From the IMG/VR virus record IMGVR_UViG_3300025597_000012: a stretch of 64,000 bases of DNA, one strand, 5' to 3'. Under the pieces are notes generated by a model. The model was not told where the DNA came from. It did no database searches and saw only the letters and a list, made by a program, of their open reading frames with translations. The DNA is from a virus. The position numbers were made by a program, and so were the translations under genes. This document shows positions 4,901 to 61,669 of this stretch, piece after piece (position 1 is the first letter of the stretch; every line of letters begins with the position of its first letter).

Positions 4901-7900
4901 TTCTATAAGTTTCTGGTCGTCAGTCTTTTCTGTAGCATCTGCTTGGAAAGCTTTAACGGCAGTAATTAAGTCTTTTCTTTCAGTAAAGTCAAAAGGCATA
5001 CCATTACTTGAAGTAAGGTCGGCAAACTCGGCAAGATTCATAGCCGGAAGATATTTTATTTTAGCAACTCCTTGTTCACCTGCTTTTGCACCTTTTACAT
5101 TAGCTTTTAAAGCTCCATAAAAACCACTAAGTACACTTACAAACCAATCAAAGAATTTTCTAGCTAAACTAGCTCCAGATTTATGATATTTATCATAAAG
5201 GAATCTACCAGTTCTGTCAAAATTTCTAGCTCCAAGTTTACCTAAATAGTTAACTAAAGCTTCGTCTTGGATTTCTTCTTTATTTTTACCTTTATATAAA
5301 GGACTCTTTAAAGTTTCAGACATAGCTTCACCAGCTATATCATCGTTCTCAAGTACAAGAGCTTTATACTCCTCCATTAAGCTTGTATATAGAGCATGGT
5401 TATCTACTTTAAGTACAGCCATAAATGGGTGAAGATATTCGTGAAATGGTGTATCTCTTGATACTCTACTTAAGTTAATAACAGCTACACTATTTTCAAA
5501 TTTACCTTTCCAATCTTCATCAACATCTACTACTTGATAAGGTATATTATATTTTTGTTTAAGATGCTCAAGTATAACTTTAAGACCAACATAATCAACT
5601 GTTAAGTTATCTTCATCTTCTGTAGATACAGTAAAAGGTTCATTTTGTTTACCATATTCAGTTTTATGATTTTCTGAATAATCTGTATCATAAGATTTAG
5701 GTATAACTATTTCTTTAAGAACACCTTCATCAAAAGGTTCTTCTGTTTCTTCTTGAATTTCAGGAGCAACTTTAGTAAGTTTATCTGAAGCAACAATTTG
5801 TTCACCATACTTTGTACCATCAGTAATAGTAACAAAAGTAGTTCCTTTTACAGTTCCGAAAGGTGTTTCTTTATCAAGACCTTCATTAACTTCAGTAACG
5901 GTAAGTTCTTTACCATTATACATAACTTTAGAACCTACATCTTCCTTAGTGAATACTTCAGGAATACGTTCTTCCTCAGGTTGAGGTTGTTCTTCAGTCT
6001 GTTGTTCAACTGGTTCAGTTTGTTGAGTTTCAGTTTCTTGTGCAGGAGTTATTTCTTTTTCTTGTGTATTTCCTGCATTTAATTTATCAATGATTGACTG
6101 AATAGCCTCATCTTTATTTAAACCTATTGCATCACCAGCTTCATCATACCAAGCACCATCAAATTCATCAATAGTATTGATAAGAGTACCATTATGTTTT
6201 ATCTCTACAAGACCATCTCCTGTAGTACGAATACTTAATTCTTTACGAGTTATAGCTTTAGTAGGTACTGGAGCAGGTTCTTCGGCTTGTGCTTCTTCAA
6301 CCTTTTTCTCTTCTTCCTGTTCAGTTTTTACCTCTTCTTTAATAACAGTCTCATATTTTTCACCAAGCATAGCAGCATAAATCTTTTTCATGCTGTCATT
6401 AAGGGTTACGTCAATATCAGAACCTACGATACCTTTATAAATATCAGTTAACCATTTCTTAAAATTATCAAAGAGTTTTTGTAATGTAGAAGTAGGAGCT
6501 TCACCATCAGCAAGGTATTTCTCAAAACCTCTAGCAAATTTCTCAGATGTTTCTCTACTCCAATCTTCAGTTCCAGCCCATTCTAATACGTCAGCTCTCT
6601 CAGTATCAGTAAGTTGTCCTTCCCAATAGTGAGCAAGTTCATGTAAAGGAGTTGATACATCAGGATTAGTTAATGAATAAATAATAGCCTGACTATCACC
6701 TAAAAGTCTTATAGCACCTTTTGGGCCTTGATTAAACTGTACATTAGTCCAATTAGCAATTTTAGAAGTATCGTTTCTTTTTAAATCATTATCTGAAAAT
6801 TCAGGACGACCTGAATAAGTAGGTTTAAGTAGTCGTGTAAATCTGTGTTCTGAATTTTTTAATTTTTTAATTTGTTCTTTTATTTCACTTAATTTTGCCT
6901 CTATATTATTTTTAAATTCAAGATATTCAGTTATAGAATCAAAATCGTCTTCAGTTACACTATCTAAATTATTTTTAACTAGGTTATATAGTTGTATTGC
7001 CCCTTTATATTTATCTTCTCTAGTACGAGTATTTGTACCACCTTCTATATTTAAATGATTTTTAAGTTGATTATATATAGAATTAGATAATCTATCTTCT
7101 ATTACTTTTTGTTCATCTGATGTAATATTAGATATTAATTTAGAAATATCTTGAACTTTTCTAAAAGTTTCAGTCTGGTCTACTTTTAATAATTTTTTAT
7201 ATAAACTTGCTTCAGCTAAAATATAATGTACATTATCATCTCTTACAAAAGGAGAATTTATAATTTTATCTTCATAAGAATTATTTTCAATATCTTTATC
7301 TGTAACATTAAATTCACGAAGTATGCTTCTTAATCGAGTTACAAAAGAACCTATTTTTATATTTGTTAAAGTAGCTTCTTTATCTAACCCTCCATGACCG
7401 TTATTAAATCTATTCCAAAGTCCTGAAAGTCCTACTTTTATAGAATCATATTGTTGTGTTATTCCATTAAGTGCTTCAATCTCAGCGTCTGTTAAGTTAA
7501 AGATTTGTTTAAATTGAGATAAAGTTTCTTTATCAATATAGTCTACAATACGACCAAAATTTGATATAAGTTGATTTTTATATTCCTCTTCTGTAACAAA
7601 TTCTGTTCCATCACGAAAAACTTTAAGACCTTTGGAAATATCAGTAATAAAGTTTGTAGGATTTTTTATTTTAGAGATATTTTCTAAAATATTAGCTACA
7701 GGTATTCTTAATTTAGACTCAACTGATTGATTTTGAAATAAAAGATTACCTTCATTTATGAAAGGATTAACAGTTCCGTGAGTTGCCTCATATACGAATT
7801 TAAGGGTATTACCATATCCATTATCAGCAAGCCACTTGTTAATTTTCTTAGCAAGTTCGGGGGTAGCTTTACCATTCTTAGTTTGGAAGGCAAGGTTACC

Positions 7901-10900
7901 AAAGCTTTTAGCTTTTTGAAGCTCAAAGCCTTTTACCACGTTTGCTATCATAGCAGAATTAGAATACTGATAATAAATATCAGGATTCTCTGTAGAGAAT
8001 GTGGCATTTCTACCAGAGGCATCTTTAACTTGGTCTGCTTCGTAAACAGCTAAGTTCTTGATTCCCTGTTCTTTAACATAGTAACCATCATAACCATTAT
8101 CTTTGATAAGCTTTTGGAAAGCTTTATCTTCTAAGACTTGCCAGTTATGTTCTTCAGAAAGGTAGAAATTACCATTCTCATCTTCACCACCTGTTAGTCT
8201 GCTATATATAGTTTTATTGTGTTCTTTTAGGAAAGCAAGGTCTTGTTTATTCTCATAGTCAAAAGGTTTATTTGCTTTTACAAATAAAGATAAAACATTG
8301 TTACCTCTTGTCACCATAGCATAGTCTTCAGAAAAATCATACTCTGGTGATAAGAACAGACCCATTCCTCTACCTTGTGTTTTGTCAAAGATACTCCAAT
8401 TTTCAGGAGTACCATGAAACATAACCATAGGCTCACCATTAACATCAAGAACTTTAGAGTTACCAAACCAGTTCTTAAATGCTTTAGTCTTAGTTAAAAG
8501 CCATGTATCTTCATCAAGTAATGAAGGTCTTCCGTTTGGAGCTTTTCTGAAAGTACCATTCTTTTTAGCAGCTTCTTTGATTTGAGCTTTTTCCTGCTCA
8601 ATAGATGGATTCTGCCAAATAGTATCTTCTGAACCTTGAAGACTTTCAGGAGTTGTTTTTCTGAAAGTTATGGATTTATAGAAGTCTTCTTTGGTCTTAC
8701 CATTTCTTAAAGCCCAAGTAGTAGCTACTCTATCATAGATTTCAGATACAGCTTTAGCCTGAGTTGATTTAAGGCTGAATAATGTCTCCATTACTTTAGC
8801 CATACTTTTCTTATCGGCAGCCACTTGGACTGTTTCAAAAGCTCTTTTTTCAGCTTCAGCAGCTTCAGGAATAAGTCTTACCAGTGCATCAGAAACCTTT
8901 TTACCAAAGATATTCTTACCTGCTTCTGGATTATCTATGTATTGAGATACGACTGCATTAAATACATCCTCATCATTAGAGCCGGCAATACCACTCTTAT
9001 AAGGTTCTTTAATGTCAGTTAAGTTCTCTCTAACTATACTTATAAACTCTTCTTTAGGAGTTTGAATTTTCTTTTCTTCAATTCTAGCTTGCTTAACTGC
9101 TTTAGCTGCAGCGGGTTCTTGCTTAGGTTGAGGTTTTACCTCTTGTTTAGCTTCAGTAGGAGCTGAAGGTTTAACAGCAGCTTTCTGACCTTTTTGTAGA
9201 GGGAATACTCTTAAAGAAAACTGTTTGAATACATCAGGTTGAGCTGCTATTGAAAGAGAGTTATTAAGTTGGTCTTGAGTAACTTCTGCGTCATTCAAGA
9301 TACCTGATTTAAAGTCTTGTTTAGCAAGTGAAAGATTAAGTTTGTCTATACTCTTAGTTTCGTAAGATACTTTTCTAATCTTTTCATCAATAGCTCTAAC
9401 CATTCCGTCAAAGTCTTTGGCTTGCTTTATCTCATTAACTTTAACTCTTTTATGTATAGGATTCTCAGGGTCAACTGTTTTATTGAATACATTAAGATAG
9501 ATATTGCCTTGAGTATCAACAGTTAATTTAAGGTCAGTTCTTCTTTCATCTCTATTTCTAGAGTCTGCAATATAAAGTTTTTCTGTAAGTTCAGAATTAA
9601 TTTTATCTACCTGTGCTTTTGTTAAAGTATTAGGAAGATTTTTAAGTTCATTATATACTTCATTAAGAATCTTTTCATCAGCCGCAGAAGGTCTTGCTAC
9701 AAGATGTCTGAAAGTACTGTCAGGCATTTTCATAACATAAAGATAGCGTCTATCAAAAGATTGAATATTCTTCAGATTATTAGCAACATAAGTTACAATA
9801 TCTGTAATTTCATCTTGAGAAAGTTCTGCTTTATTAAGAATAGTAGGTTTAGTACTTCTTTCGTATTGTTTATTTTCTTTGTTATAAACAACTGGGAATG
9901 AAAGTATTGCACTACCTTTTTGACCTTTGTATGTAAGATTTTTAAGTAATGTAGAAGAAGATTCTGATTTTGAATAATTTATACCGCCATAAGAAGTTAC
10001 AATATCAAATAAAGCCTTAAGCTCCTGATTAGTAAATTCAGTTTTACCTGATTTAAATTGAGAATAGAAATGCTCACTAAGTGCTTTATAATCAGTCATT
10101 TGCTGAATAAAGTCAGAATAAGTTGAAGGTTCATTACCTGTAATTCTTTCATATTCTTCAGGAGCAATCTCAATTAACGGAGTATATTTTTCACCTCTTT
10201 TAAAATAAAGTCTATCAGCGTCACTAAGAAAACCAATAGTCTCACCTTCAAATTTTAATTCAATTTGAGTATGTGAACCTGTGTAGTAAACACCCGGAAT
10301 ATTTTTAAAACCTTGATATGCACCATGAGGAAGCCCTTTAGTGCTTTCTGCTACAGTAGCAGTAAGACCATCATAAATTTGTTGAGGTGTTTTACTGAAT
10401 AAAACTTTTCTAAGATTGTCATTATTTTTTTGACCATCTTGATAGTTTACAGAGTTAATCTTGTTAAATAAAACTGAAGGGTTAGCAACCATTTGGATGC
10501 TATTAGTCTTCACACCTTTTCTTTTCTTATCAGCTTCTTTTACACCTTCTTGAATTTCTGCAACATCCTCAGAATCAAATGTTTCGTGAGTAGGAGTATT
10601 GTCTATAAAAGTAACTGGGCCAGCAGAAGTTTGAACTTCTTTAGAAGTATTTTCTTCTAATGTAGCCAGTTCTGCATCATATTTAGCATTAATTTTTTTT
10701 GAATAAGCGTTTAAACTGGATTCCTCCCCTGTTCTTTCTCCTGTTTTAGAGTATTTACCAAAAGAAGTTTGAGAATACGCAACTTTTAAGTAATCTTCTG
10801 TTGTTTGTTCTTTACTGATTTCAAAAGGAGAGTTATCATTAACATTACCATATTTATTTTTTTCAATACCTTGGTAAGCCATTCTTTTTCCATCAGGATA

Positions 10901-13858
10901 CGTTCTTATTTGAACATAAGTAATATCTCCATCATCATTAGTAAATGTAAATTCTTCTACTTTAGACGCATCTTTATCTTTATATTCATTTAATTCTTCC
11001 TGTCTTCTTTTTTCTATATCAGCTTTCTTAGCTTCTATATCAGTAGCTTTATTTTTATTTTCAGCTCTTTGAGCTTGTGCTTTCTTAGTTACTTCTGCTT
11101 TTACTTTAGAAGAAACTTTACCTTTTACTTCTTTACCGTTTTTATCAACGGCTGTAACTTCCCCATTAGGTTTAACTATATAAGTCTTACCTTCATTTTT
11201 TACAAGTACGTCTTTAGTTTCTTTCTTAGTTTCAGCAGGTTTAGCCTCAGTAGCTTTAGTAGCTGCTGCAGCTTTAGGAGCTGGTTCATCTACAACGTCT
11301 TCTACATCAGCACCATTAACATCACCGGGTTTAACTTCAGTATCTAAGAAAGGTGATTTATCAAAGTTATCTTCAGCTCTTTGATATTCAGCCATTACAT
11401 CAGCAAAGAATTTATTATATCCGTTCTTATTTGTAAGTTGCTGATAATGATAAATAGCACCATCTGTAGCACTTATAAGTTTAAATCCATCTTGTGCTTT
11501 GTTTAAAATATCATAAGCATCAATAGGATTAATTATTTTTTCATTACTAAAAGTTTTGTTATTAGCATAATAATTTAATAACTCTGTAGCAGTTTTTGTA
11601 TAGTTTCCTTTATAATCATCAGCTAAAGCATCTTTAAGTTCTTCAACTTTTTTATTTAAAAAGTCTCTTTCTTTTGTTTGCTTTTTATATAAATCGGAAT
11701 CCTTATCTTCAACATCTTTTGTTAATTCATCAATCTCTTTAACTCTTTTTTCAAATCTATTTATAGTATCTTGTACACCTTTATCATTAGTTAAATTAAT
11801 TACTTCATCAACATTAGCACCAGTGGATTGAGCTATCTCTGTAGATATTTTAGAAAGTCTTCTTTTATTATCATTAATTTCTGATAAGTTAAGACCTAAC
11901 TGTGTTTTATATTCATCAAATACAAAATAATTATTAGTTCCTTTTTTATAAGGATTAGGGAAAACTTTTTCTACTTTATCAATATTATCTTTAATATCGT
12001 GAGCTTTTTTGATAATATTATCAACAAAAGCATCTGTAGTTTTTTTGTTTTCTTCTGAGAAATTTATACCAAACATATTTTGGAACTCTTCAGGCTTAAG
12101 TTCTTTAAGCATATTAAGTTGTTCCATTCTTAAATCAAAGCGATTAGCTCTGACTCCACTTTCAACAAAGTTAAATAATTGTTGAAATTTAAGATTTTTA
12201 TGTTCAAAAATATCACCTTTAGCTAAAGCTTCATCCATAGAAGACTTAATAGATTGAGCTACTACAGCTTCATCATAAGTATTTCTAAATAAACCAGAAA
12301 GTCTTTGACTATTAAGTAAAGAAACGGCAGAATTAATTATTTGATTTTTTCCACCATCAATACCTTTTCTACGCTCAAGAGCACCTCTACCAACATGAAT
12401 AACAGCACCGCTAAGAATACCTAAGAATACATTCTCAAGACCTTCTCTTGTAGTTAGTACTTCTTTTAATCCTGTTGCTAAAGATTGGGTAAAATTATCA
12501 ACAGTATCAATATCCTTATTAGAGAATTTACGCTTATAATAATCTTCGGCAGTTCTTTGAATTACAAATTGAGAACCTTCTTCAAATCCTTCAGTAAGAC
12601 TTGTAGTTATAGGTCTAGCTATTTTACCTGCTGATTTAAATAAATCAAATTTTGTACTATTCTTTAATGTATTTTCAAATACATCCATAGATGCTTTAGA
12701 TAATGCAATATCCGCATCACTCATTACTTCAGATTGTACTGCTTTTCTAGCTGCATTTGTAGGACTAAATAGTGAACCAAAAATTTGTGAATTTGTAAAA
12801 GTAAGAAGAGCTACGTTAGCAAGCATACCAGCATTACCACCACCTCTTGCATATTCCTTAATCTGTTCTAAATCATAACCAGATGGGTCACGATGATATG
12901 TATTTCTATAATCTTCTGTTAAATTTTTTTCAATATTACGATATGTTTGATTTGCCTCAAATGTACCTTCAGCAATAGCAGAAGTACCTATAGCCAGACC
13001 ATATCTGAATTTATCAACAATATTTTTTGTTTTATTAGCTGCATTTATAGTAGCAAGAAGTTCATCGGCCTTATCTAAAGATTCAATAACAGCAGTTGAA
13101 ACTCTTTTTTCAGCAGTAAAGTATTTTCCTATTTTACCAAAAGCACTCATTATTTGAGAGCTTACTAATGGAACATCACCAACACCTCCAGTTAAAACTC
13201 CAACTACAGCATCTTCAGCAATAGCACCACCAATAGCACCTGCAGTGAAGCCAAGGTTATTTAATAAAGTACTCCAGTTATTAGCAGAACCATTAGTAAA
13301 AGGAATCCAACTAGCAATAGGATGTAACTGATTAGCAGTAGATTGATATGTAGGATGACTTATTTCTAAATTTTCCATCATATCTGCAATAGAATTTGCT
13401 AATTTTCCATTATATGTTTTATCTATATCTCCTGATGATAAAGCATCTAAAGTTTGGGGAACAGCAACAATAGCTTGTGCAAAAGAACCTGTAGTATTAC
13501 CTAAAAATTTTAAAATATTATTTCCCCATGTAGTCCAAGCACTTTGTCTATCACCATATTGAGCTTCTTGATTTGTATTATATGGGTCAAATCCATAAAT
13601 AGGTGACTGATATCTTAGAGTTTGTTCAAGAGGTGTTCTAACAGGCTGATTTATTTCTAAAGAAGATGACCAAGGTGCAGATTCAGTTCTTACTTTATCA
13701 AAGATACTTGATAAGATTTCTTTAGGAGAAGGAGTAACCTGAGCACCCGGAACATTAGGCATAGGCTGAGTATGTAACTCAGGACTAACTAAGTTATTCA
13801 TTCCTGTATTCAGGAAATCCAAGTTTCTGTTATATGTACCATTTGGAACGTCAGGCAT
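1979..13858 (-). CDS. Giant virion/tail protein (3959 aa), probable ejected or tail-associated protein; zincin-type HExxH motif (PLHELAHYWEG, ~6626-6640), low-complexity K/A/E-rich linker, possible ADP-ribosyltransferase-like HGT motif (~8408-8419)
   Basis: Uninterrupted 11.9 kb ORF at the distal end of the structural block. HELAH confirmed by reverse translation of 6626-6640. Crude screen for the crAss-type RNAP DxDGD motif negative. Confidence 0.85.
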   Translation of the reverse strand: MPDVPNGTYNRNLDFLNTGMNNLVSPELHTQPMPNVPGAQVTPSPKEILSSIFDKVRTESAPWSSSLEINQPVRTPLEQTLRYQSPIYGFDPYNTNQEAQYGDRQSAWTTWGNNILKFLGNTTGSFAQAIVAVPQTLDALSSGDIDKTYNGKLANSIADMMENLEISHPTYQSTANQLHPIASWIPFTNGSANNWSTLLNNLGFTAGAIGGAIAEDAVVGVLTGGVGDVPLVSSQIMSAFGKIGKYFTAEKRVSTAVIESLDKADELLATINAANKTKNIVDKFRYGLAIGTSAIAEGTFEANQTYRNIEKNLTEDYRNTYHRDPSGYDLEQIKEYARGGGNAGMLANVALLTFTNSQIFGSLFSPTNAARKAVQSEVMSDADIALSKASMDVFENTLKNSTKFDLFKSAGKIARPITTSLTEGFEEGSQFVIQRTAEDYYKRKFSNKDIDTVDNFTQSLATGLKEVLTTREGLENVFLGILSGAVIHVGRGALERRKGIDGGKNQIINSAVSLLNSQRLSGLFRNTYDEAVVAQSIKSSMDEALAKGDIFEHKNLKFQQLFNFVESGVRANRFDLRMEQLNMLKELKPEEFQNMFGINFSEENKKTTDAFVDNIIKKAHDIKDNIDKVEKVFPNPYKKGTNNYFVFDEYKTQLGLNLSEINDNKRRLSKISTEIAQSTGANVDEVINLTNDKGVQDTINRFEKRVKEIDELTKDVEDKDSDLYKKQTKERDFLNKKVEELKDALADDYKGNYTKTATELLNYYANNKTFSNEKIINPIDAYDILNKAQDGFKLISATDGAIYHYQQLTNKNGYNKFFADVMAEYQRAEDNFDKSPFLDTEVKPGDVNGADVEDVVDEPAPKAAAATKATEAKPAETKKETKDVLVKNEGKTYIVKPNGEVTAVDKNGKEVKGKVSSKVKAEVTKKAQAQRAENKNKATDIEAKKADIEKRRQEELNEYKDKDASKVEEFTFTNDDGDITYVQIRTYPDGKRMAYQGIEKNKYGNVNDNSPFEISKEQTTEDYLKVAYSQTSFGKYSKTGERTGEESSLNAYSKKINAKYDAELATLEENTSKEVQTSAGPVTFIDNTPTHETFDSEDVAEIQEGVKEADKKRKGVKTNSIQMVANPSVLFNKINSVNYQDGQKNNDNLRKVLFSKTPQQIYDGLTATVAESTKGLPHGAYQGFKNIPGVYYTGSHTQIELKFEGETIGFLSDADRLYFKRGEKYTPLIEIAPEEYERITGNEPSTYSDFIQQMTDYKALSEHFYSQFKSGKTEFTNQELKALFDIVTSYGGINYSKSESSSTLLKNLTYKGQKGSAILSFPVVYNKENKQYERSTKPTILNKAELSQDEITDIVTYVANNLKNIQSFDRRYLYVMKMPDSTFRHLVARPSAADEKILNEVYNELKNLPNTLTKAQVDKINSELTEKLYIADSRNRDERRTDLKLTVDTQGNIYLNVFNKTVDPENPIHKRVKVNEIKQAKDFDGMVRAIDEKIRKVSYETKSIDKLNLSLAKQDFKSGILNDAEVTQDQLNNSLSIAAQPDVFKQFSLRVFPLQKGQKAAVKPSAPTEAKQEVKPQPKQEPAAAKAVKQARIEEKKIQTPKEEFISIVRENLTDIKEPYKSGIAGSNDEDVFNAVVSQYIDNPEAGKNIFGKKVSDALVRLIPEAAEAEKRAFETVQVAADKKSMAKVMETLFSLKSTQAKAVSEIYDRVATTWALRNGKTKEDFYKSITFRKTTPESLQGSEDTIWQNPSIEQEKAQIKEAAKKNGTFRKAPNGRPSLLDEDTWLLTKTKAFKNWFGNSKVLDVNGEPMVMFHGTPENWSIFDKTQGRGMGLFLSPEYDFSEDYAMVTRGNNVLSLFVKANKPFDYENKQDLAFLKEHNKTIYSRLTGGEDENGNFYLSEEHNWQVLEDKAFQKLIKDNGYDGYYVKEQGIKNLAVYEADQVKDASGRNATFSTENPDIYYQYSNSAMIANVVKGFELQKAKSFGNLAFQTKNGKATPELAKKINKWLADNGYGNTLKFVYEATHGTVNPFINEGNLLFQNQSVESKLRIPVANILENISKIKNPTNFITDISKGLKVFRDGTEFVTEEEYKNQLISNFGRIVDYIDKETLSQFKQIFNLTDAEIEALNGITQQYDSIKVGLSGLWNRFNNGHGGLDKEATLTNIKIGSFVTRLRSILREFNVTDKDIENNSYEDKIINSPFVRDDNVHYILAEASLYKKLLKVDQTETFRKVQDISKLISNITSDEQKVIEDRLSNSIYNQLKNHLNIEGGTNTRTREDKYKGAIQLYNLVKNNLDSVTEDDFDSITEYLEFKNNIEAKLSEIKEQIKKLKNSEHRFTRLLKPTYSGRPEFSDNDLKRNDTSKIANWTNVQFNQGPKGAIRLLGDSQAIIYSLTNPDVSTPLHELAHYWEGQLTDTERADVLEWAGTEDWSRETSEKFARGFEKYLADGEAPTSTLQKLFDNFKKWLTDIYKGIVGSDIDVTLNDSMKKIYAAMLGEKYETVIKEEVKTEQEEEKKVEEAQAEEPAPVPTKAITRKELSIRTTGDGLVEIKHNGTLINTIDEFDGAWYDEAGDAIGLNKDEAIQSIIDKLNAGNTQEKEITPAQETETQQTEPVEQQTEEQPQPEEERIPEVFTKEDVGSKVMYNGKELTVTEVNEGLDKETPFGTVKGTTFVTITDGTKYGEQIVASDKLTKVAPEIQEETEEPFDEGVLKEIVIPKSYDTDYSENHKTEYGKQNEPFTVSTEDEDNLTVDYVGLKVILEHLKQKYNIPYQVVDVDEDWKGKFENSVAVINLSRVSRDTPFHEYLHPFMAVLKVDNHALYTSLMEEYKALVLENDDIAGEAMSETLKSPLYKGKNKEEIQDEALVNYLGKLGARNFDRTGRFLYDKYHKSGASLARKFFDWFVSVLSGFYGALKANVKGAKAGEQGVAKIKYLPAMNLAEFADLTSSNGMPFDFTERKDLITAVKAFQADATEKTDDQKLIERIKRRLAVLDDTARRRTPSPELLSELIAVRSLLKNYDEFESINQYIYQGIDGLRYASDEFKRISGKLSDKENKLTQKDVKQLHRDLDLVRNLLAMYEDVHGLFGRVAQDLAPEAYKAMQITLAEARNIADYKIKARSIDLTAEWLFPYIEEVNERIKDKYPSYVLTKEQFKNKLYNADEDLSFLQFHLGSVGSNNDPVSAITRTALFDVMEDNHLYEAKLGEEIKIDYAKFLKAKGLANETKSTVEYYKKNFLRKATILQKTEEKDDEGKFKWAYTQKWALHQPYFYDLYTKDKAAFLETLGEMPDAPSENSTAAERALYQNYVDKIFAWEEQNGSLSKPADKYKNAEFDRLYNKDEFFTKMYDTYKEGNDKYGEEERLQFGIVPQVFDKPSQIQDVKTAEGAGNKAKVVGNKVLNFFLPKAEESTTAQNDINLDGSMYKRIKTPYVQSIDDSNVSLVLPETIFKFAGAANLVEMMREVEPNVRTLRMVLEGNAQFKMEARKIIPVTSDRKTIFDRFLKLPSKKTTAERLNKQLLSWLDDVVYGQEELQDTARIFGRAVDLNKLGGNFAFLTALNNMAFNVTAGIGNVSIGNIMTLGESLGAKYYTPADWRKAQGQYFSNFNEFMKDAFNLKKSKITQLGIKYDAIQGEFRDKYGKKFVGNATQRYANADTIFIINHAAEHQIQLVGMLSLMNATKVKTTSGETISLFDAHKINEKGFLRLRDDIIWTAEDERLFTQRLHGVNKILNGNYSKFDKVQLQRTFYGKLMLIYRKFMYNAFRSRYGRQRFDYEIGDEMEGYYRKFFSKVASDIKEMKFNAAANFFNRKGWSADEKYAYNKTMFELSLLVGMGILTIALANASGDDKDKSWLQNTLTLQMLRLRKDIGMYSIFGATDIMQVLQNPSAVILTATRYTDFFTQLVTNPTEVYKRKTGAFDKGDSILKAKLFKAIPIVRQAVNMMQPEEQLQYYRLLNKY

Positions 13859-18651: not shown

Positions 18652-19925
18652 TACGGATTCTTTTTAAATCGTGGAGAATAGAAGTTTTGTTTTTGTGTGT
18701 ATTGTATATCACCTGAACTAGGGTCAATATAATAAGGCAAATTTAATTTTTCATCCCAAAATAACTCATTTACTTGTTGAGGAACATAAGGAGAAACTAA
18801 AGACTTAGGAATAGGACTATAATCAGGAGATAATTTATTTCCATTTATATCTACATAATCAGGTACTCTATTACCAACGGTAGCATTTTCTCCCATTATT
18901 AAATTTCTTTCTACTGCAAATTTTTTAGCCTGCTTATTAGCTTCTGCTATTTGTTCTTTTGTATATCCACCAACTTGCATCTTATGTTCCTTTACAACTC
19001 CATACATAGCTACAGTATGATTAGGGCCATGTAATACAGCGGTCTTTCCTCTTTGGTCTGTTACCTTTATAGGTCTTCCAGAATCTAATCCGCGTATAAG
19101 ATTATACTGCGGTGGTAAATCAAGCGTCATACTTTGTAAAGAACTACCGTTCAATCCATTAGCTAGTTCTGTAGGTGTGCTTGCTACTCCACCCATTTGT
19201 CTTTTAGCGGGTTCTATATGCCAGTGAGGGCCAACTCCTTTTACATTTCTTTCATCAATTATTTCATAACCTTGACTTTGCATATATGCTCTTCCTTCAG
19301 GAGAAGCAAAAAAAGCATCTGTCTTAGGCTCTGTTCTAATATCGGCAGCTCTACCAGTTAAGTGAAACGAGTTCTTTGCAGAACCAGTTATCTTACTATT
19401 TTCTTGAGGTGTTCTAAGTCCACTTGTTACTGTAAAATTTCCTATTTTTGATTTAATCCCTGATAATACTCCAGTTAATTGATTAGATAATCCTTGTGAG
19501 CTAACTCCTTGTTTAAAAGATATTCCTTCTGCGCTTGGTGTTCTAGACACATTTGTATTAGGAGTTGAAGCAGGAGTTCCACTAACTTCCTCATCACTAA
19601 AAGTTATAGGCATATTATCATCATCCTGAAAAATAAAATTTAGGAAGGGGTCATTAAAATCCTTACCTATAGTTTGATTTCTTTGTAAACTTTCAAGTTG
19701 GCTAGCAAGGTCATTATATTTACCTAAAAGCTCCTGATAATTATCATCTCCAATATCTGAAGACGTTGTTTCGGCAGCCTCTTCGGTATTATTATCTTCA
19801 CTCTCTTGTTCGTCCTGTTGTGGTTGCTGTTGATTAGCTTGTAAATAACTAGCTACCTGATTAAAAAAATCAGTACTATATAAATCATTTTGACCACCAA
19901 CTTGATATTTAGATTTCTTTCTCAT
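18651..19925 (-). CDS. Virion-associated peptidoglycan hydrolase candidate; peptidase M15 (LAS/VanY-like) signature SFHLTGRAADI
   Basis: SxHxxGxAxD zinc-peptidase motif sitting inside the tail gene block. Confidence 0.6.
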   Translation of the reverse strand: MRKKSKYQVGGQNDLYSTDFFNQVASYLQANQQQPQQDEQESEDNNTEEAAETTSSDIGDDNYQELLGKYNDLASQLESLQRNQTIGKDFNDPFLNFIFQDDDNMPITFSDEEVSGTPASTPNTNVSRTPSAEGISFKQGVSSQGLSNQLTGVLSGIKSKIGNFTVTSGLRTPQENSKITGSAKNSFHLTGRAADIRTEPKTDAFFASPEGRAYMQSQGYEIIDERNVKGVGPHWHIEPAKRQMGGVASTPTELANGLNGSSLQSMTLDLPPQYNLIRGLDSGRPIKVTDQRGKTAVLHGPNHTVAMYGVVKEHKMQVGGYTKEQIAEANKQAKKFAVERNLIMGENATVGNRVPDYVDINGNKLSPDYSPIPKSLVSPYVPQQVNELFWDEKLNLPYYIDPSSGDIQYTQKQNFYSPRFKKNP

Positions 19926-48948: not shown

Positions 48949-48949
48949 A

Positions 48950-48978
48950 AATAAAAAACCCCGCTTTATAGGCGGGGC
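48950..48978 (-). terminator. Intrinsic terminator (CCCCGCC-UAUAAA-GCGGGG then U6AUUU) abutting the 5' end of tRNA-Pro; acts as the attenuator terminator of tRNA array A
   Basis: GC hairpin followed by a T-run on the minus strand. Confidence 0.7.
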
Positions 48979-49003
48979 TTTAAGTATAATAATTGAGTTT
49001 CAA

Positions 49004-49967: not shown

Positions 49968-49972
49968 AATAG

Positions 49973-50056
49973 CGGTAGAGACAGGAATCGAACCTGTACG
50001 GCTATTACACCTTCATGGTTTTCAAGACCAATAAGCCCTCTCATTTGCGCTCTACC
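49973..50056 (-). tRNA. tRNA-Ser (TGA), type II
   Basis: Anticodon loop CTTGAAA; 84 nt; acceptor GGTAGAG/CTCTACC. Confidence 0.7.
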
Positions 50057-50062
50057 AATATG

Positions 50063-53740: not shown

Positions 53741-53801
53741 TTGAATGGTCGGGCGGATTGCTTCTTTCAGCCTCAGACATTAATTACAATGTTGCCCGAT
53801 G

Positions 53802-53874
53802 CGGTCTATCACGGATTCGAACCGAGACTACCGCATAGACAGTGCGGCGTGTTCAACCATTACACTAATAGACC
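53802..53874 (-). tRNA. tRNA-Asp (GTC)
   Basis: Anticodon arm CCGCA-CTGTCTA-TGCGG; acceptor GGTCTAT/ATAGACC; overlaps the 3' end of the upstream ORF by ~15 nt. Confidence 0.8.
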
Positions 53875-55459: not shown

Positions 55460-55530
55460 GAGCGAGTAGTGGGAGTCAAACCCACGCCTTAACCTTGGAA
55501 GGGTCATATGCTATCGTAACACTTCACTCG
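55460..55530 (-). tRNA. tRNA-Gly (TCC)
   Basis: Anticodon arm TGACC-CTTCCAA-GGTTA; T-arm GTGGG-TTTGACT-CCCAC; the 5' end overlaps the HNH stop. Confidence 0.6.
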
Positions 55531-55942
55531 CTAATGCTTCTTTATAATGTAAATCTCTATGACAATTAGCACATAAAACTTTACATTTATTTATTTCTTC
55601 TTGTAATAGTTTTTTAGAACATTTTGTTACAAGTTGTGATACTTCTGAATCTTTTTCATTTGGATTTTTATGATGAAAATCTAAAACCCAATATCTACTA
55701 TCTCCACATGATTCACAAGATAAAGTACTTTTGTATTCAGAAAACCATTTTCTAAAGTCTTGTTTATACTTTACTGCTTTTTGAATATACTTTTCTTTAT
55801 TTTTTTCGTAATGCTTTTTTCTATATTCTTTTTGACAAGCTTTACAATTACTTTGATAAAGTAAATTTTTTCTATCTTTTCTTGTAGCAAACTCCGTTAA
55901 AGGAAGTTCTTTTTTACAAATTGTACATTTTTTAATTTTCAT
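55511..55942 (-). CDS. HNH homing endonuclease (leaderless; start at MKIKKCTICKK)
   Basis: CESCGDS…DFHHKNP…LCANCHRDLH; the predicted promoter places the TSS on the ATG, so the N-terminal extension in the ORF track is rejected. Confidence 0.7.
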   Translation of the reverse strand: MKIKKCTICKKELPLTEFATRKDRKNLLYQSNCKACQKEYRKKHYEKNKEKYIQKAVKYKQDFRKWFSEYKSTLSCESCGDSRYWVLDFHHKNPNEKDSEVSQLVTKCSKKLLQEEINKCKVLCANCHRDLHYKEALASEVLR

Positions 55943-56868: not shown

Positions 56869-56871
56869 AAA

Positions 56872-56898
56872 TAAAAAACCCTCCTTTAAGGGGAGGGC
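56872..56898 (-). terminator. Intrinsic terminator (CCCUCC…GGAGGG then U6AUUU) 4 nt upstream of tRNA-Lys; attenuator terminator of array D
   Basis: Hairpin plus T-run. Confidence 0.7.
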
Positions 56899-56920
56899 TT
56901 CAGTAATATTCGTGGTTAAA

Positions 56921-57030: not shown

Positions 57031-57062
57031 CAAACTTACGACAAATATTTGGATTTTCCAAA
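57031..57062 (-). promoter_or_regulatory. Promoter TTTG-N20-TAAGTTTG for the array D leader
   Basis: Extended consensus copy. Confidence 0.55.
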
Positions 57063-57080: not shown

Positions 57081-57281
57081 TTAAATCTTTTGTGAATATC
57101 TTTTCCAGCCTGTAACTTTATTGATAGCGTCTACTAGTTTATTGTAATCTTTACGCCAGTTTTTATAAGCTTTGGAGCGTTTATCTGATGGCTCCTTAGC
57201 GGCCTGTTCAGCTAAAAGTTCATCAGCATGACCTACGTTTACAATAATTATTTCTTTATCGTCAATCATTACTCTTTCCAT
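57081..57281 (-). CDS. Small hypothetical protein
   Basis: ORF coupled to its upstream gene. Confidence 0.4.
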   Translation of the reverse strand: MERVMIDDKEIIIVNVGHADELLAEQAAKEPSDKRSKAYKNWRKDYNKLVDAINKVTGWKRYSQKI

Positions 57282-57607
57282 TACTTTATTCTTTTAATAA
57301 GTTCACCACTAAGCTCCTCATAAATTCTTGAGAATTTTTCATAACCCATTCTTATTAAGAACATTCCGTAGTTTAAAAATATCTTTACGTGCTCATCATC
57401 TTCTTTACCATAAGCTACAATATCATTTAAATTGACTACTAATGGTTTATATGTAGTTTCTGAATCATCTTCATCTTCTTCATCTTCTTCATATTTATCA
57501 CCTTTAATCAGACGTTTAGCTATTCTTGCAGCTTTGTCTTCTTCTGATTCATTGTTCTTGTCTTTAAAGACTCTTACTTTTACAAAAAATTCTACGCGTT
57601 GTGCCAT
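57281..57607 (-). CDS. Acidic hypothetical protein
   Basis: ORF; EEDEEDEDD tract. Confidence 0.45.
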   Translation of the reverse strand: MAQRVEFFVKVRVFKDKNNESEEDKAARIAKRLIKGDKYEEDEEDEDDSETTYKPLVVNLNDIVAYGKEDDEHVKIFLNYGMFLIRMGYEKFSRIYEELSGELIKRIK

Positions 57608-57620
57608 GTTTTTTATTTTG

Positions 57621-57736
57621 CAGTATGGGAAGGATTCGAACCTTCATAGTTTAATGTATCGTTCACTAGGAATACTTAATACTTATAAACTGCCACCGAG
57701 ACTAGGTGGTGCGTCTGCCAGTTCCGCCACCGTACT
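57621..57736 (-). tRNA. Atypical 116-nt tRNA-like gene: Leu-like D-arm (TG-GCG-GAACTGGCAGA-CGC), canonical T-arm (GAAGG-TTCGAAT-CCTTC), paired acceptor, ~46-nt hairpin insertion in the variable region, non-canonical anticodon loop UAGUCUC
   Basis: Own promoter whose predicted TSS coincides with the 5' end. Confidence 0.4.
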
Positions 57737-57743
57737 ATAAGTA

Positions 57744-57774
57744 CAAAGATAGTGAAAAATTTTGAGATTACAAA
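57744..57774 (-). promoter_or_regulatory. Promoter TTTG-N19-TATCTTTG driving the atypical tRNA-like gene
   Basis: Predicted TSS falls at the tRNA-like 5' end (57736-57737). Confidence 0.5.
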
Positions 57775-59884: not shown

Positions 59885-60433
59885 AAAGGTAGTGTTTTTC
59901 TCTCACTTAACCAAATTTAATTTGTTAAAATAGGCCCCCGGTATTTAACATTTGAAAAAGATACCCCCGTACTTACCTAAAGGGGAAATAAGGGGAGGCT
60001 CTCACTCTTAGGAACCCGGTTATAACTCCTCCCCCGCGTTCCCTTAGTCCGTGACCTATCCCCCTGCTTAAAGCCGTAACGAATTGAGAACCAGCGACTT
60101 ACAACTATTTTCAAAGTTTTTGCCCTGAATAGTTGGAAACGGTCAGCAGGATGACCTACTTTTGTCTGGTAATCCTACCACACAGCCCAAAGGGGCAAAG
60201 CAAAGTAAGGCAAGCCGCAAGGCCATCCCTGAACTGTTCGTGGCGTGATTACCCTGCATATAAACTATAGGCAAACTTTGCCTACAGTCCAAAGTATGGA
60301 ATGTCGGAATAACTGATGTTTATTGGTGTCTATGTAGCATCCAACTCAGGTGTTAGTCTACATAGGATTAAACAGTAGGCCAGTTGACCAGTCGGGGTAT
60401 TTTTATACCTAACTGCAAACCATTGGTTAATCC

Positions 60434-60457
60434 AAAAAACCCGTCCTTTACGCGGGC
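60434..60457 (-). terminator. Possible minus-strand terminator inside the GC-rich region
   Basis: CCCGC-GUAAAGGA-CGGG then U6. Confidence 0.3.
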
Positions 60458-61397
60458 TTGCTAAAAACAGGCTCTTAAATTGGACTCCCTAAGGGGATAT
60501 GCTTATACGATTGTGTCTGCTCATGCAGGTACATCGGTCAAGGGCAAAGTGTTACCGTCATCAGAATACAGGAACAAACCTGTATACGGTAGGGGTATAT
60601 CCCAACGCAGCCGGCTTGGTACGGACTTGGCAAGTCCAAACCATGACAATACTCGGTCAAACAACCCTGCTGTCCTAAATGGGCATCATATAGGCAGGGA
60701 CTGCGAAGCAACGTAGTGGACAACTCCCTGCTTAGGGTAGGGGTATATAGTGTCCGGTGCGTAGTGTAAAGGTGGCTATTGTTACCTGAAAGCGTAACGA
60801 AAGGAATAAACTGCAAAGTTTTTGAGGCTCGTCATGTACTAACGGGCTATTTTGCGTGTAGAATAATATTCAACCACGTTTCTGAATAGTACAAAGTAAG
60901 GTAAGCTACCTGCGAAAACGGTCTAAACGGGCTAATTGCACCCGCAAGGATTAGACTAAACTCACAATTATTTCTATAATTGAGTATAAAGCGGAAGCAC
61001 TCTTGTCATTTAGTGACAGGACTAATCTGCAAGTAAGGTATGAGGGTGGCCGCAAGGTTGCACCCTCATGTCGGGGTCAAATCCGGCGGAAGGCTCATAA
61101 CTTTCCGCCTTACCACATTTGGACACGGACGGATAACACAATAGGGGATGGGGCACGTCAAAGCACTACTAATGTAGGCGAGCACGGCACTCATTCCCTT
61201 GTTGTGTTAAAGTTGTGTTACATTTTACGTTATGTAAAGCCAGCAGTGTGCCGCGAGGTTCTTTTGCTGGCTCAATGTACTGAAAGAGAACCGTTTGCGG
61301 GTTGTTCCGTATGGGTCGGTATGTCCATATCTTTTGCTCGTAAATTGTTGATTTTCAATGTTTCAAAGGCTCTCATTAGTTATTACTGGGTCTTTAT

Positions 61398-61436
61398 GGG
61401 GGGTGTGTCGGTACTGTCCTGCACACCCCTTTTCTA
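61398..61436 (+). terminator. Plus-strand intrinsic terminator (GGGGUGUG…CACACCCC then UUUUC)
   Basis: 8-bp GC-rich stem plus T-run ending the ORF-poor region. Confidence 0.55.
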
Positions 61437-61474
61437 TTAGGATTATCGTGCCTCTTATGGCATAATGATACAAT

Positions 61475-61669
61475 ATGGCTGAACTTACTCTTGCACAGTT
61501 GGTTGAAAGGTGTTATGCCTCTAATACCGAACTGAAACCTCACGTTAAAAGTACGTGGCGTAGTCCTGAACCGTGTGAATTCGGGTGGCATATTGAAGAG
61601 GCTACCTGTAATGACGGCAGCGTATGGGAGTGGATACCGGAAGACCATATCTGGGAACTTAAAAGATAA
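61475..61669 (+). CDS. Small hypothetical protein (GC-rich rightward operon)
   Basis: First of five tightly spaced plus-strand ORFs with ~48% GC codon usage. Confidence 0.4.
   Translation: MAELTLAQLVERCYASNTELKPHVKSTWRSPEPCEFGWHIEEATCNDGSVWEWIPEDHIWELKR

What the first reader, a model, noticed from the sequence alone, without database searches (positions are those of the whole stretch)
57621..57774. Promoter-driven 116-nt atypical tRNA-like gene with a 46-nt variable-region hairpin and non-canonical anticodon loop
The acceptor stem (AGTACGG/CCATACT), Leu-like D-arm and canonical T-arm are all present. The anticodon loop reads UAGUCUC, with no U33 and no R37. A ~46-nt insert between the anticodon and T arms can form its own extended hairpin (AGTTTAT…ATACATTAAACT). 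A promoter (TTTG-N19-TATCTTTG) places the TSS exactly on the mature 5' end. This could be a decoy or regulatory tRNA-like RNA, a tRNA carrying a mobile insertion, or a non-standard decoder.
Basis: seen in the sequence. Interest (0 to 1): 0.6.

Follow-up and report, generated by a model that had tools for sequence, protein, structure and literature searches.

The report
Phage tRNA-Asp mimic with giant arm
This phage gene encodes a transfer-RNA look-alike that carries the marks of an aspartate tRNA but has an abnormal decoding loop and a side arm about three times normal length; a distant relative keeps the same design, so it is a working RNA, probably tied to phage-host conflict over tRNAs.

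Summary
Window 57621-57736 (minus strand) is a 116-nt tRNA-shaped gene behind a Bacteroidota-type promoter, and tRNA finders miss it. It is not a pseudogene remnant. A distant phage (flanking proteins 43% and 29% identical) has an element at the same position with the same architecture and nine double-sided compensatory changes in 17 stem pairs. The "non-canonical" loop UAGUCUC holds GUC, the Asp anticodon. With C38, G73 and G10 these are the published strong AspRS determinants. If the variable arm is trimmed, ARAGORN calls it tRNA-Asp. It belongs to an apparently undescribed phage family. Members have a Leu-type D-arm, G73, an Asn, Asp or Glu anticodon, usually U37, and variable arms of 6-71 nt. 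They often sit beside a normal isoacceptor. The candidate is an extreme member with A33, a C5·A68 mismatch and a 47-nt arm. My best reading is a tRNA-processed, AspRS-recognisable mimic or spare that decodes poorly, possibly serving in conflicts over tRNA-targeting defences. That function is inferred, not shown. The search also found a larger phage-only class of tRNA frames carrying pseudoknotted payloads.

The parts
57744..57774 (-). Bacteroidota-type promoter: -33 TTTG (57771-57774), 19-nt spacer, -7 box TATCTTTG (57744-57751)
   Evidence: The motif class is enriched: 12 matches against 2.1 expected. Nearly the same sequence lies upstream in the ortholog locus L144 6750-6784.
57621..57736 (-). 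The whole tRNA-Asp-like RNA gene, 116 nt, from A1 to discriminator G73
   Evidence: Sequence. The MFE fold is a cloverleaf with a long variable arm. The class model gives 68.3 bits. ARAGORN places the boundaries here in intron mode and calls tRNA-Asp when the arm is trimmed.
57730..57736 (-). Acceptor stem, 5' strand AGUACGG
   Evidence: Pairs with 57622-57628 in 6 of 7 positions (C5·A68 mismatch). The ortholog has AGCAGAG/CUCUGCU, 7 of 7.
57711..57727 (-). D-arm GCG-GAACUGGCAGA-CGC (Leu-type: 3-bp stem, 11-nt loop containing GG)
   Evidence: 16 of 18 bases identical to the phage's own tRNA-Leu(UAG) D-arm region. 17 of 18 identical to L242.
57693..57709 (-). Anticodon-like arm CCACC-UAGUCUC-GGUGG. 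The loop is 57698-57704, with G34 U35 C36 = Asp triplet, plus A33, U37 and C38
   Evidence: The stem covaries with the ortholog's CCCUA/UAGGG: 3 double-sided changes. Identity rules are from PMC9976931.
57646..57692 (-). Variable region, 47 nt: unpaired C, then a 44-nt hairpin (AGUUUA...UAAACU), then AU ending in U48
   Evidence: Folds. The ortholog has the same 1+2 spacing and a 68-nt hairpin. U48 is at least 90% conserved in the frame alignment.
57629..57645 (-). T-arm GAAGG-UUCGAAU-CCUUC
   Evidence: Canonical T-loop. The stem shows 4 double-sided changes relative to the ortholog's CCCAG/CUGGG.
57621..57628 (-). Acceptor stem 3' strand CCAUACU (57622-57628) and discriminator G73 (57621)
   Evidence: G73 is shared by all 9 non-Leu members of the subclass, whereas all 27 tRNA-Leu have A73.
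57608..57620 (-). C74 and the A-rich linker CAAAAUAAAAAAC before the ATG of the next gene. No CCA is encoded
   Evidence: All 22 ordinary tRNAs in the window also encode N73 and C74 without a full CCA. The linker GCAAAAUAA is conserved in L144.
57281..57607 (-). Co-transcribed 108-aa acidic protein gene of unknown function
   Evidence: It starts 13 nt after the RNA. Its homolog (29% identity, E 1e-16) starts 12 nt after the ortholog element.
57081..57281 (-). Co-transcribed 66-aa ORF, the last gene of the inferred unit
   Evidence: There is no terminator between the promoter and 56901.
56875..56901 (-). First intrinsic terminator downstream, after a second promoter at 57031-57062 and a 30-aa ORF

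Best explanation
This is a functional, selected RNA gene. It is a chimeric tRNA-like RNA with a class II shape and a Leu-type D-arm and variable-arm geometry. Its anticodon arm and discriminator carry aspartate-type marks (G34 U35 C36, C38, G73, G10). It is an extreme member of a phage family of G73/U37 'Asx/Glx' tRNAs.

Proposed mechanism:
1. It is transcribed from its own promoter as the 5' part of a small operon. The layout is shown; transcription is inferred.
2. The intact tRNA core (U8, A14, A15-U48, G18G19, T-loop), U at -1, and G73-C74 without CCA make it a substrate for RNase P, a 3' endonuclease and the CCA-adding enzyme, like the neighbouring tRNAs. Cleavage also releases the downstream mRNA with a 13-nt A-rich leader. 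This step is inferred.
3. G73 blocks LeuRS. The full Asp determinant set lets AspRS bind it and possibly charge it. This is inferred from published identity rules.
4. A33 and U37 should make it a poor decoder on the ribosome. In the colicin E5 model, A33 would also make the GUC loop uncleavable by YGUN-specific anticodon nucleases. It would therefore act as a tRNA-Asp mimic: a decoy, sponge or reserve for an Asp-tRNA-binding factor. It sits beside the phage's normal tRNA-Asp. This step is speculative.
For: Structure and selection:
- MFE cloverleaf.
- A positional ortholog at L144:6971-7110, with homologous genes on both sides at 43% and 29% identity.
- The ortholog has 9 double-sided compensatory changes in 17 stem pairs and no broken pair.
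- The promoter and the GCAAAAUAA linker are also conserved.

Family:
- Among elements with this D-arm and a canonical-size anticodon arm, 27 are tRNA-Leu (A73, R37, variable arm 9-17 nt).
- 9 have Asp, Asn or Glu anticodons. All 9 have G73, U37 and a variable arm of 24-71 nt.
- Paired scans gave 27 Asn-type elements with U37 and G73, and 7 with R37 and G73.
- L242 shares the candidate's acceptor except at pair 5-68, 17 of 18 D-arm bases, G73 and the trailer.
- Normal isoacceptors sit in the same phages.

Identity:
- Bacterial Asp identity is G73, G10, G34, U35, C36 and C38. G73 is an antideterminant for LeuRS (PMC9976931).
- ARAGORN calls tRNA-Asp(GUC) after arm trimming.

Processing marks:
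- U at -1 and N73-C74 without CCA, as in all genuine tRNAs of the window.
- U48 is conserved.

Nuclease context:
- Colicin E5 absolutely requires YGU, and changing U33 to A or G abolishes cleavage (PMC1635277).
- Phage tRNAs commonly carry anticodon-loop changes predicted to evade anticodon nucleases (PMC10264068).
Against: - There are no expression, processing or charging data.
- Only one ortholog was found, and its loop is CUUUCUA (UUC, a Glu triplet, with U33 and A38). Asp identity is therefore not conserved across the lineage.
- A33 and the C5·A68 mismatch are unique to the candidate and could be early decay.
- Other family members keep U33 and often encode CCA, which suggests they decode. 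U37 also occurs in the phage's only ordinary tRNA-Asp, so U37 alone does not rule out decoding.
- The identity and nuclease rules come from E. coli, Thermus and yeast. The host is unknown and is inferred to be Bacteroidota only from the promoter type.
- My searches fixed the D-arm and T-loop, so the family's boundaries are biased.
Confidence: 0.45

Rival explanations
1. It is a working, if unusual, tRNA-Asp isoacceptor. It is charged by AspRS and reads GAY codons. Its altered loop (A33, U37) and bulky variable arm make it resistant to host tRNA-targeting nucleases, so it serves as a backup for the normal tRNA-Asp.
For: - It has the full Asp determinant set, and it is called tRNA-Asp when the arm is trimmed.
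- Family members keep U33, a 7-nt loop and often CCA.
- The sole ordinary tRNA-Asp of this phage group also has U37.
- Engineered tRNAs tolerate hairpin tags in long variable arms (PMC7590224 abstract).
- Phage tRNA loop variants are proposed to evade nucleases.
Against: - U33 is near-universal in elongator tRNAs and forms the U-turn needed for ribosome binding (discussed in PMC1635277). The candidate alone has A33.
- It has a pyrimidine at position 37 and a C5·A68 mismatch.
- The ortholog carries a different anticodon (UUC) on a body that lacks the GluRS determinants I recall from memory, so decoding identity is not conserved.
Confidence: 0.25
2. It is a recently inactivated pseudogene of the G73/U37 tRNA family, carried along because it lies inside an operon leader.
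For: - Two defects are seen only in the candidate: A33 and C5·A68.
- The Rfam tRNA model gives no match even at E up to 10.
- A normal tRNA-Asp is already present at 53801-53874.
Against: - All other stems, the D-loop, the T-loop, U8, U48 and G73-C74 are intact.
- The lineage has kept the structure across deep divergence with 9 compensatory changes.
- The sequence is identical in at least 5 independent metagenome assemblies.
- C·A is a mild, near-isosteric mismatch.
Confidence: 0.12
3. Its main role is as an RNA-processing signal, like the tRNA-like 't-elements' of plant mitochondria. RNase P and RNase Z cut at its ends to define the 5' end of the downstream mRNA. The anticodon and variable regions would be free to drift.
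For: - It lies 13 nt upstream of an ORF, and in the ortholog 12 nt upstream and directly after a stop codon, with a conserved linker.
- About 37 of 85 frame-class elements have an ORF start 10-30 nt downstream.
- t-elements are a precedent (PMC1920247 title and abstract).
Against: - The anticodon-like arm keeps canonical size and covaries, so it is not drifting.
- The strict link between anticodon type, G73 and U37 is not needed for processing.
- Phage genomes are compact, so a short distance to the next ORF is expected anyway.
Confidence: 0.1
4. It is a seryl-tRNA synthetase substrate, because of G73, G2-C71, A4-U69, C11-G24 and a very long variable arm. It would insert Ser at Asp codons (Glu codons in the ortholog), as a programmed missense tRNA comparable in concept to allo-tRNAs.
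For: - The bacterial Ser determinants G73, G2-C71, R4-Y69, C11-G24 and a large variable region are all present and are conserved between the candidate and its ortholog.
- Acceptor pairs 3, 5 and 6 vary between them.
- Allo-tRNA precedent: PMC5389517.
Against: - The spacing at the base of the variable arm (1 nt and 2 nt) and the D-arm are Leu-type, not Ser-type.
- C72 and G30-C40 are absent.
- A33 and U37 argue against decoding.
- Asn-type relatives include C2-G71, a negative element for SerRS.
Confidence: 0.05
5. It is an ordinary tRNA gene interrupted by an intron or a mobile insertion that is removed or tolerated.
For: ARAGORN in intron mode calls a gene with the same boundaries.
Against: - The intron positions and anticodons it assigns are arbitrary and change with settings (Asn, Glu, Ile), both for the candidate and across 85 related elements.
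- The extra sequence sits at the natural variable-arm site, not in the anticodon loop.
- 47 nt is too short for a group I intron.
- No repeat copies or target duplications were found.
- Family arm lengths form a continuum.
Confidence: 0.03

Closest known systems
Class II bacterial tRNAs (tRNA-Leu, tRNA-Ser, tRNA-Tyr)
   Same: 3-bp D stem with an 11-nt loop, and a helical variable arm set off by 1 nt on the 5' side and 2 nt on the 3' side (Leu-type). The acceptor/T configuration is the canonical 7/5. The D-arm is 16 of 18 identical to the phage's own tRNA-Leu.
   Different: The anticodon is GUC, not a Leu, Ser or Tyr anticodon. It has G73 where Leu has A73. The variable arm is 47 nt against 9-17 nt in 27 phage tRNA-Leu. 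It has A33 and U37.
Bacterial tRNA-Asp (class I)
   Same: It has all the strong AspRS determinants, G73, G34, U35, C36 and C38, plus G10 and G2-C71 (PMC9976931). ARAGORN calls it tRNA-Asp when the arm is trimmed.
   Different: Class II body, A1-U72 instead of G1-C72, A33, U37, and a 47-nt variable arm instead of 4-5 nt.
Phage tRNAs with anticodon-loop mutations that evade anticodon nucleases (van den Berg et al. 2023, PMC10264068; T5 tRNA-Lys against PARIS, PMC11464382; tRNA-Tyr against retron effectors, PMC11555353)
   Same: It is phage-encoded, sits beside or duplicates a decoding function, and has altered loop positions next to the anticodon. A33 would break the YGUN motif that colicin E5 needs.
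   Different: Those are otherwise canonical, decoding tRNAs. This one changes U33 itself and has a chimeric body with an oversized arm. No link to any defence system has been shown.
T4 species 1 and 2 stable RNAs (rnaC, rnaD)
   Same: They are non-decoding stable RNAs encoded inside a phage tRNA cluster. rnaC ends in a canonical T-arm, an acceptor-like stem and an A/CAAAC trailer. Their function is still unknown (PMC9697503).
   Different: rnaC has no recognisable D-arm or anticodon arm, and its closing stem is imperfect. No sequence relationship to the candidate was found.
allo-tRNAs (Mukai et al. 2017, PMC5389517) and engineered aptamer-tagged tRNAs (PMC7590224)
   Same: They have long variable arms, and anticodons that do not match the body's apparent identity. 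They have been proposed as missense or nonsense suppressors or as regulatory RNAs.
   Different: allo-tRNAs have 8/4 or 9/3 acceptor/T geometry, whereas this one has the canonical 7/5. allo-tRNAs are reported from bacteria and some of their phages, with much shorter arms.
Plant mitochondrial t-elements (PMC1920247)
   Same: They are tRNA-like structures within mRNAs, and cleavage by tRNA-processing enzymes defines the mRNA ends. The candidate and its ortholog abut ORFs in the same way.
   Different: t-elements are degenerate and lack conserved anticodon features. Here the anticodon arm and discriminator follow a strict rule.

Membership tests
Canonical tRNA (Rfam RF00005 / ARAGORN definition) | Reaches the family model's score threshold | tested here: not met
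   There is no RF00005 match at gathering score or at E up to 10, and no default ARAGORN call. With the variable arm trimmed to 19 nt or less, ARAGORN does call it.
Canonical tRNA (Rfam RF00005 / ARAGORN definition) | Cloverleaf with a 7-bp acceptor, D-arm, 5-bp/7-nt anticodon arm and 5-bp/7-nt T-arm, plus the tertiary-core bases (U8, A14, G18G19, U54U55C56, Y48) | tested here: met
   Seen in the sequence and the MFE fold. The acceptor has one C·A mismatch.
Canonical tRNA (Rfam RF00005 / ARAGORN definition) | U33 and a purine at position 37 in the anticodon loop | tested here: not met
   The loop is U32 A33 G34 U35 C36 U37 C38.
tRNA-Asp by aminoacylation identity | G73, G34, U35, C36 and C38 (strong determinants), plus G10 (PMC9976931) | tested here: met
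   All are present in the sequence. Actual charging cannot be tested with these tools.
tRNA-Asp by aminoacylation identity | G1-C72 and G2-C71, strictly conserved in bacterial tRNA-Asp | tested here: inconclusive
   G2-C71 is present. Pair 1-72 is A-U, not G-C.
tRNA-Leu | A73 discriminator and a Leu anticodon | tested here: not met
   It has G73, an antideterminant for LeuRS, and the anticodon triplet is GUC. All 27 genuine tRNA-Leu with this D-arm have A73.
Phage G73 / pyrimidine-37 Asx-Glx chimeric tRNA family (defined here) | Leu-type D-arm, a canonical-size anticodon arm with a GUU, GUC or UUC triplet, U37 and G73 | tested here: met
   9 of 9 non-Leu elements, including the candidate, share G73 and U37. 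A further 27 Asn-type U37 members were found. L242 shares the candidate's acceptor and D-arm.
Phage G73 / pyrimidine-37 Asx-Glx chimeric tRNA family (defined here) | U33 | tested here: not met
   The candidate has A33. The other 8 members found without imposing U33 all have U33.
Phage tRNA-frame + pseudoknot-payload class (A73, commonly with acceptor AGUCAGG; defined here) | The anticodon and variable arms are replaced by a non-tRNA module, often a hairpin whose loop pairs with the 3' tail; A73 | tested here: not met
   The candidate keeps an anticodon arm and a simple variable-arm hairpin and has G73. It shares only the frame, scoring 68.3 bits with model R1.
tmRNA / tRNA-Sec / other Rfam tRNA-like families | Match to the covariance model | tested here: not met
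   No match at E up to 10. ARAGORN's tmRNA mode is negative.
tRNA with a group I intron | Insertion in the anticodon loop with a catalytic core of about 200 nt or more | tested here: not met
   The extra 47 nt lie between the anticodon arm and the T-arm. No intron family matches.
allo-tRNA | 8/4 or 9/3 acceptor/T-stem geometry | tested here: not met
   The geometry is 7/5.

The most novel reading that the evidence does not exclude
Phages encode a previously unrecognised family of 'shadow' tRNAs. These are chimeric, class-II-shaped RNAs that display the anticodon arm and discriminator of Asn, Asp or Glu tRNAs, with a pyrimidine at position 37 and an expandable variable arm. They are built to be recognised by host tRNA-binding enzymes (class IIb synthetases, anticodon nucleases or Q-inserting TGT) while escaping cleavage or normal use. 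On this reading the candidate, with A33, is a dedicated uncleavable decoy for an Asp-tRNA-directed defence nuclease. Alternatively it is charged by SerRS through its long arm to recode Asp codons.
Probability: 0.2. Interest if true: 0.85.

Novelty: new variant of a known kind. Interest (0 to 1): 0.62.

Why it matters
Phage tRNAs are now seen as weapons in conflicts over tRNA-targeting immunity. The known cases are near-canonical tRNAs with subtle loop changes. This locus, its ortholog and about 35 relatives show a more radical design that standard annotation largely misses: a Leu-shaped body, an Asx/Glx anticodon and discriminator, U37, and variable arms of up to 71 nt.

If these RNAs are charged or bound by host enzymes, several questions become directly testable:
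- how far tRNA identity can be separated from decoding;
- what the long variable arm does on a tRNA with a non-Leu/Ser/Tyr anticodon;
- which host factors target Asn, Asp and Glu tRNAs in Bacteroidota-type hosts.

The same search exposed a larger phage-only class of tRNA frames carrying structured payloads, a natural version of the engineered 'tRNA scaffold'. That class deserves its own study.

Tried and rejected
- Known RNA families (tmRNA, tRNA-Sec, YrlA and others): no match at E up to 10.
- Intron-containing tRNA: ARAGORN intron mode gives arbitrary anticodons and introns.
- Mobile insertion: the insert has no other copies and no flanking repeats.
- Close relatives: none in GenBank phages or IMG/VR. 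The single metagenome scan returned only other class members, and the bacterial genome scan was not informative for this lineage.
- Metagenome copies of the same phage are 100% identical, so they give no covariation.
- Conserved protein partner near frame-class elements: none across lineages.
- LeuRS charging (my first idea, from the D-arm): dropped for the candidate, because G73 is a LeuRS antideterminant.
- Loop-to-tail pseudoknot like those of the payload class: only a 4-bp possibility in the candidate, and it competes with the variable-arm stem.
- A promoter abutting the 5' end as a class feature: only 3 of 86 elements have one.
- The profile search with the downstream protein found only the one known relative. 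Other homologs of the upstream protein (L145-L150, L206-L209) carry no element.
- Thermodynamic stability is uninformative: z = 0.44.
- Literature searches found no description of this family.

Full report
**The observation.** On the minus strand, window 57736→57621 reads:

AGUACGG-U-G-GCG-GAACUGGCAGA-CGC-A-CCACC-UAGUCUC-GGUGG-C-[44-nt hairpin]-AU-GAAGG-UUCGAAU-CCUUC-CCAUACU-G

C74 follows and no CCA is encoded. I have three corrections: the acceptor has a C5·A68 mismatch, the variable region is 47 nt, and positions 34-36 spell GUC. The minimum-energy fold is a cloverleaf with a long variable arm. Stability is no better than shuffled sequence (z = 0.44), which is uninformative for tRNAs. ARAGORN finds 21 tRNAs and Rfam finds 20 on the same strand between 48.4 and 56.9 kb, but neither reports this locus, even at E up to 10.

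**Promoter and transcription unit.**
- The motif TTTG-N19-TATCTTTG at 57744-57774 belongs to a class with 12 matches against 2.1 expected. Nine of them lie on the minus strand of the tRNA region. From general knowledge, this is the Bacteroidota -33/-7 promoter type.
- The motif ends 7 nt before the RNA's 5' end.
- The next gene (108 aa, acidic, no known family) starts 13 nt after G73.
- No terminator occurs before 56901.
- The inferred unit is therefore promoter, RNA, ORF108, ORF66.

**Is it a relic?** The same phage occurs 100% identical in several metagenome assemblies, which gives no covariation. GenBank phages, IMG/VR and the metagenome scan hold no close relative.

The upstream 255-aa protein does have distant homologs. 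One of them (43% identity) lies on contig L144, which has a similar downstream tRNA order (Lys, Cys, Val, Asn, Met) and the same glycosyltransferases. A class model finds an element at L144:6971-7110, scoring 51.8 bits. The ORF that starts 12 nt after it is a homolog of ORF108 (29% identity, E = 1e-16).

The ortholog folds the same way:
- acceptor AGCAGAG/CUCUGCU;
- the same D-arm type;
- anticodon-like arm CCCUA-CUUUCUA-UAGGG;
- one unpaired C, a 68-nt variable hairpin, two unpaired bases ending in U48;
- T-arm CCCAG-UUCAAAU-CUGGG;
- discriminator G73.

Against the candidate, 9 of 17 stem pairs are changed on both sides and none is broken. blastn cannot align the two RNAs, although neighbouring tRNAs align at 70-80%. 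The promoter sequence and the linker GCAAAAUAA are also conserved. In L144, however, a 60-aa ORF separates the promoter from the RNA. So the structure is under selection, and a TSS lying on the 5' end is not a conserved feature.

**What kind of tRNA-like RNA is it?** I collected all elements that have this D-arm, a closing acceptor, a T-arm and a canonical-size anticodon arm. They split cleanly:
- 27 are ordinary tRNA-Leu: Leu anticodons, A73, R37, variable arm 9-17 nt.
- 9 carry GUC, GUU or UUC. All 9 have G73, U37 and a variable arm of 24-71 nt. This group includes the candidate and its ortholog.
- 1 fits neither group.

Paired scans that imposed U33 and a [G/U]U[C/U] anticodon gave 27 distinct Asn-type elements with U37 and G73, and 7 with A37 and G73. 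Variable arms run from 6 to 41 nt, and CCA is often encoded. The four such phages I checked also carry a normal tRNA-Asn.

The candidate's loop UAGUCUC equals the family loop UUGUUUC with U36C (Asn to Asp) and U33A. L242, which ARAGORN calls tRNA-Asn, shares the candidate's acceptor except at pair 5-68. It also shares 17 of 18 D-arm bases, G73 and the CAAAA trailer. With the arm trimmed, ARAGORN calls the candidate tRNA-Asp(GUC).

**Identity logic.** The tRNA identity review (PMC9976931) gives these rules:
- Bacterial Asp identity is G73, G10, G34, U35, C36 and C38. The candidate has all of them.
- Asn identity is the anticodon plus G73.
- G73 is an antideterminant for LeuRS.
- Ser identity is G73, C72, G2-C71, R4-Y69, C11-G24, G30-C40 and a large variable region. 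The candidate and its ortholog meet all of these except C72 and G30-C40.

So the RNA is not Leu-accepting. It could be read by AspRS, or less likely by SerRS.

**Processing.** Like the genuine tRNAs of the window, the candidate has U at -1 and N73-C74 without CCA. U48 is at least 90% conserved in the frame alignment, although no search imposed it. This fits maturation by RNase P, a 3' endonuclease and CCA addition. That is an inference.

**Function.** A33 is unique to the candidate, and U37 is unusual. Together they argue against efficient decoding. However, the phage group's only ordinary tRNA-Asp also has U37, in both the window and L150. For colicin E5, YGU is absolutely required, and changing U33 to A or G abolishes cleavage (PMC1635277). 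Phage tRNA loop variants have been proposed to evade anticodon nucleases (PMC10264068).

I therefore favour a processed, AspRS-recognisable mimic or spare that a nuclease cannot cleave and that the ribosome uses poorly. My confidence in that function is moderate to low. The rivals are a resistant decoder, recent decay, a processing signal and a SerRS-charged missense tRNA. The ortholog's Glu-type triplet is the main difficulty for any model that depends on a specific anticodon.

- Of 96 distinct elements, 76 have a perfect 7-bp acceptor, 85 have a perfect T stem, and 75 have A73.
- All seven acceptor pairs covary.
- The middle is not an anticodon arm. It is a set of diverse modules that are swapped between frames.
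- These modules carry compensatory changes. The changes support a hairpin whose loop pairs with the 3' tail.
- One phage has at least four paralogs.
- The cultured Bacteroides phage BS-TP2 carries one, unannotated.
- The commonest frame occurs in only 5 short MAG contigs among 185,579 species' genomes.
- T4 rnaC is the nearest classical analogue, and its function is still unknown.

The candidate shares the frame (68.3 bits) but not the payload architecture.

**Caveats.**
- The searches fixed the D-arm and T-loop.
- The identity rules come from model organisms.
- The host is inferred from the promoter type alone.
- There are no expression data.

Noticed in passing
L011-L130 and L135-L138 (IMG/VR and metagenome loci). 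Cultured example: Bacteroides phage BS-TP2, PQ571275.1, about 19548-19658 (L132 2493-2603): A large, essentially phage-only class of tRNA frames: a 7-bp covarying acceptor (commonly AGUCAGG/CCUGACU), a Leu-type D-arm, U48, a T-arm and A73. The anticodon and variable arms are replaced by diverse modules of 52-82 nt. The same module can occur in different frames, and different modules in one frame. Compensatory changes support a hairpin-loop-to-3'-tail pseudoknot. The class is not in Rfam and not annotated, and ARAGORN misses it.
   Followed up: partly
L019 2201-2267, 2669-2781, 3016-3111, 4586-4683: One viral contig carries at least four paralogs with the same acceptor and T-arm but different D-arms and middles, embedded in a 13-tRNA cluster. 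This suggests a multi-copy scaffold with variable payloads.
   Followed up: partly
window 53801-53874 (-); L150 7733-7806 and 7459-7534: The phage's only ordinary tRNA-Asp(GUC) has a pyrimidine at position 37 (loop CUGUCUA), and a related phage has the same loop. That relative's tRNA-Glu has C37 (CUUUCCA). Pyrimidine-37 in Asp and Glu tRNAs looks like a trait of this lineage.
   Followed up: partly
window 49971-50059 (-): An uncalled, atypical tRNA-Ser(UGA)-like gene lies between tRNA-Leu(UAA) and tRNA-Ser(GCU). It has acceptor GGUAGAG/CUCUACC, loop CUUGAAA, a normal T-arm and an aberrant D-arm. ARAGORN and Rfam (at gathering score) both miss it. Model R1 gives 27.4 bits.
   Followed up: partly
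window 55461-55531 (-): tRNA-Gly(UCC) is found by Rfam (50.1 bits) but missed by ARAGORN. With it and the Ser-like gene, the phage covers 19 amino acids. Only Trp is missing.
   Followed up: no
window 57664-57697 (candidate positions about 40-73); contigs L009, L010, L005: Three short metagenome contigs from two samples end at candidate position 39-40 or start at position 73. So assemblies break inside the variable arm. This could reflect a population variant of the arm or a coverage gap. It is unresolved.
   Followed up: partly
window 59885-61475: A 1.6-kb stretch with no called genes, at about 45% GC against about 32% in the flanking phage genes, lying between divergent gene blocks. It has no Rfam match. 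About 140 nt (59992-60128) is 73% identical to the equivalent gene-free gap in L144 (2067-2203). It could be a regulatory or replication region, or an unknown RNA.
   Followed up: partly
variable-arm tips: window about 57664-57672; L144 about 7034-7042; L050: The apical regions of the three longest variable arms share a UAGUR motif: CCUAGUGAA, CAUAGUAAU and UUAGUGUAA. The candidate's anticodon loop also contains CUAGU. This may be a binding motif or a coincidence.
   Followed up: no
L153, L162, L165, L193, L197, L227, L243, L246 (Asn-type members): Their 24-26-nt variable arms are covarying hairpins capped by GNRA-type tetraloops (GAAA, GAUA, GACA). These look like structured extensions, not random insertions.
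   Followed up: no
L133 2126-2562 (crAss-like phage cr4_1, NC_055893.1, about 67805-68241): A 437-nt unannotated intergenic region ends in a T-arm and a 6-bp acceptor-like stem (AGUAAG...GAGAGGUUCGAAUCCUCUC-CUUACU-A-CAAG). This is another tRNA-like 3' module, of unknown nature.
   Followed up: no
window 48949-48980 and 56869-56900 (+ strand coordinates): Two near-identical strong terminators on the minus strand sit immediately upstream of the first tRNA of two tRNA blocks (tRNA-Pro and tRNA-Lys). So these tRNA blocks start right after a terminator, with no recognisable promoter box in between.
   Followed up: no
window 1979-13858 (-): A single 3959-aa ORF lies in the structural-gene block. I did not examine it.
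   Followed up: no
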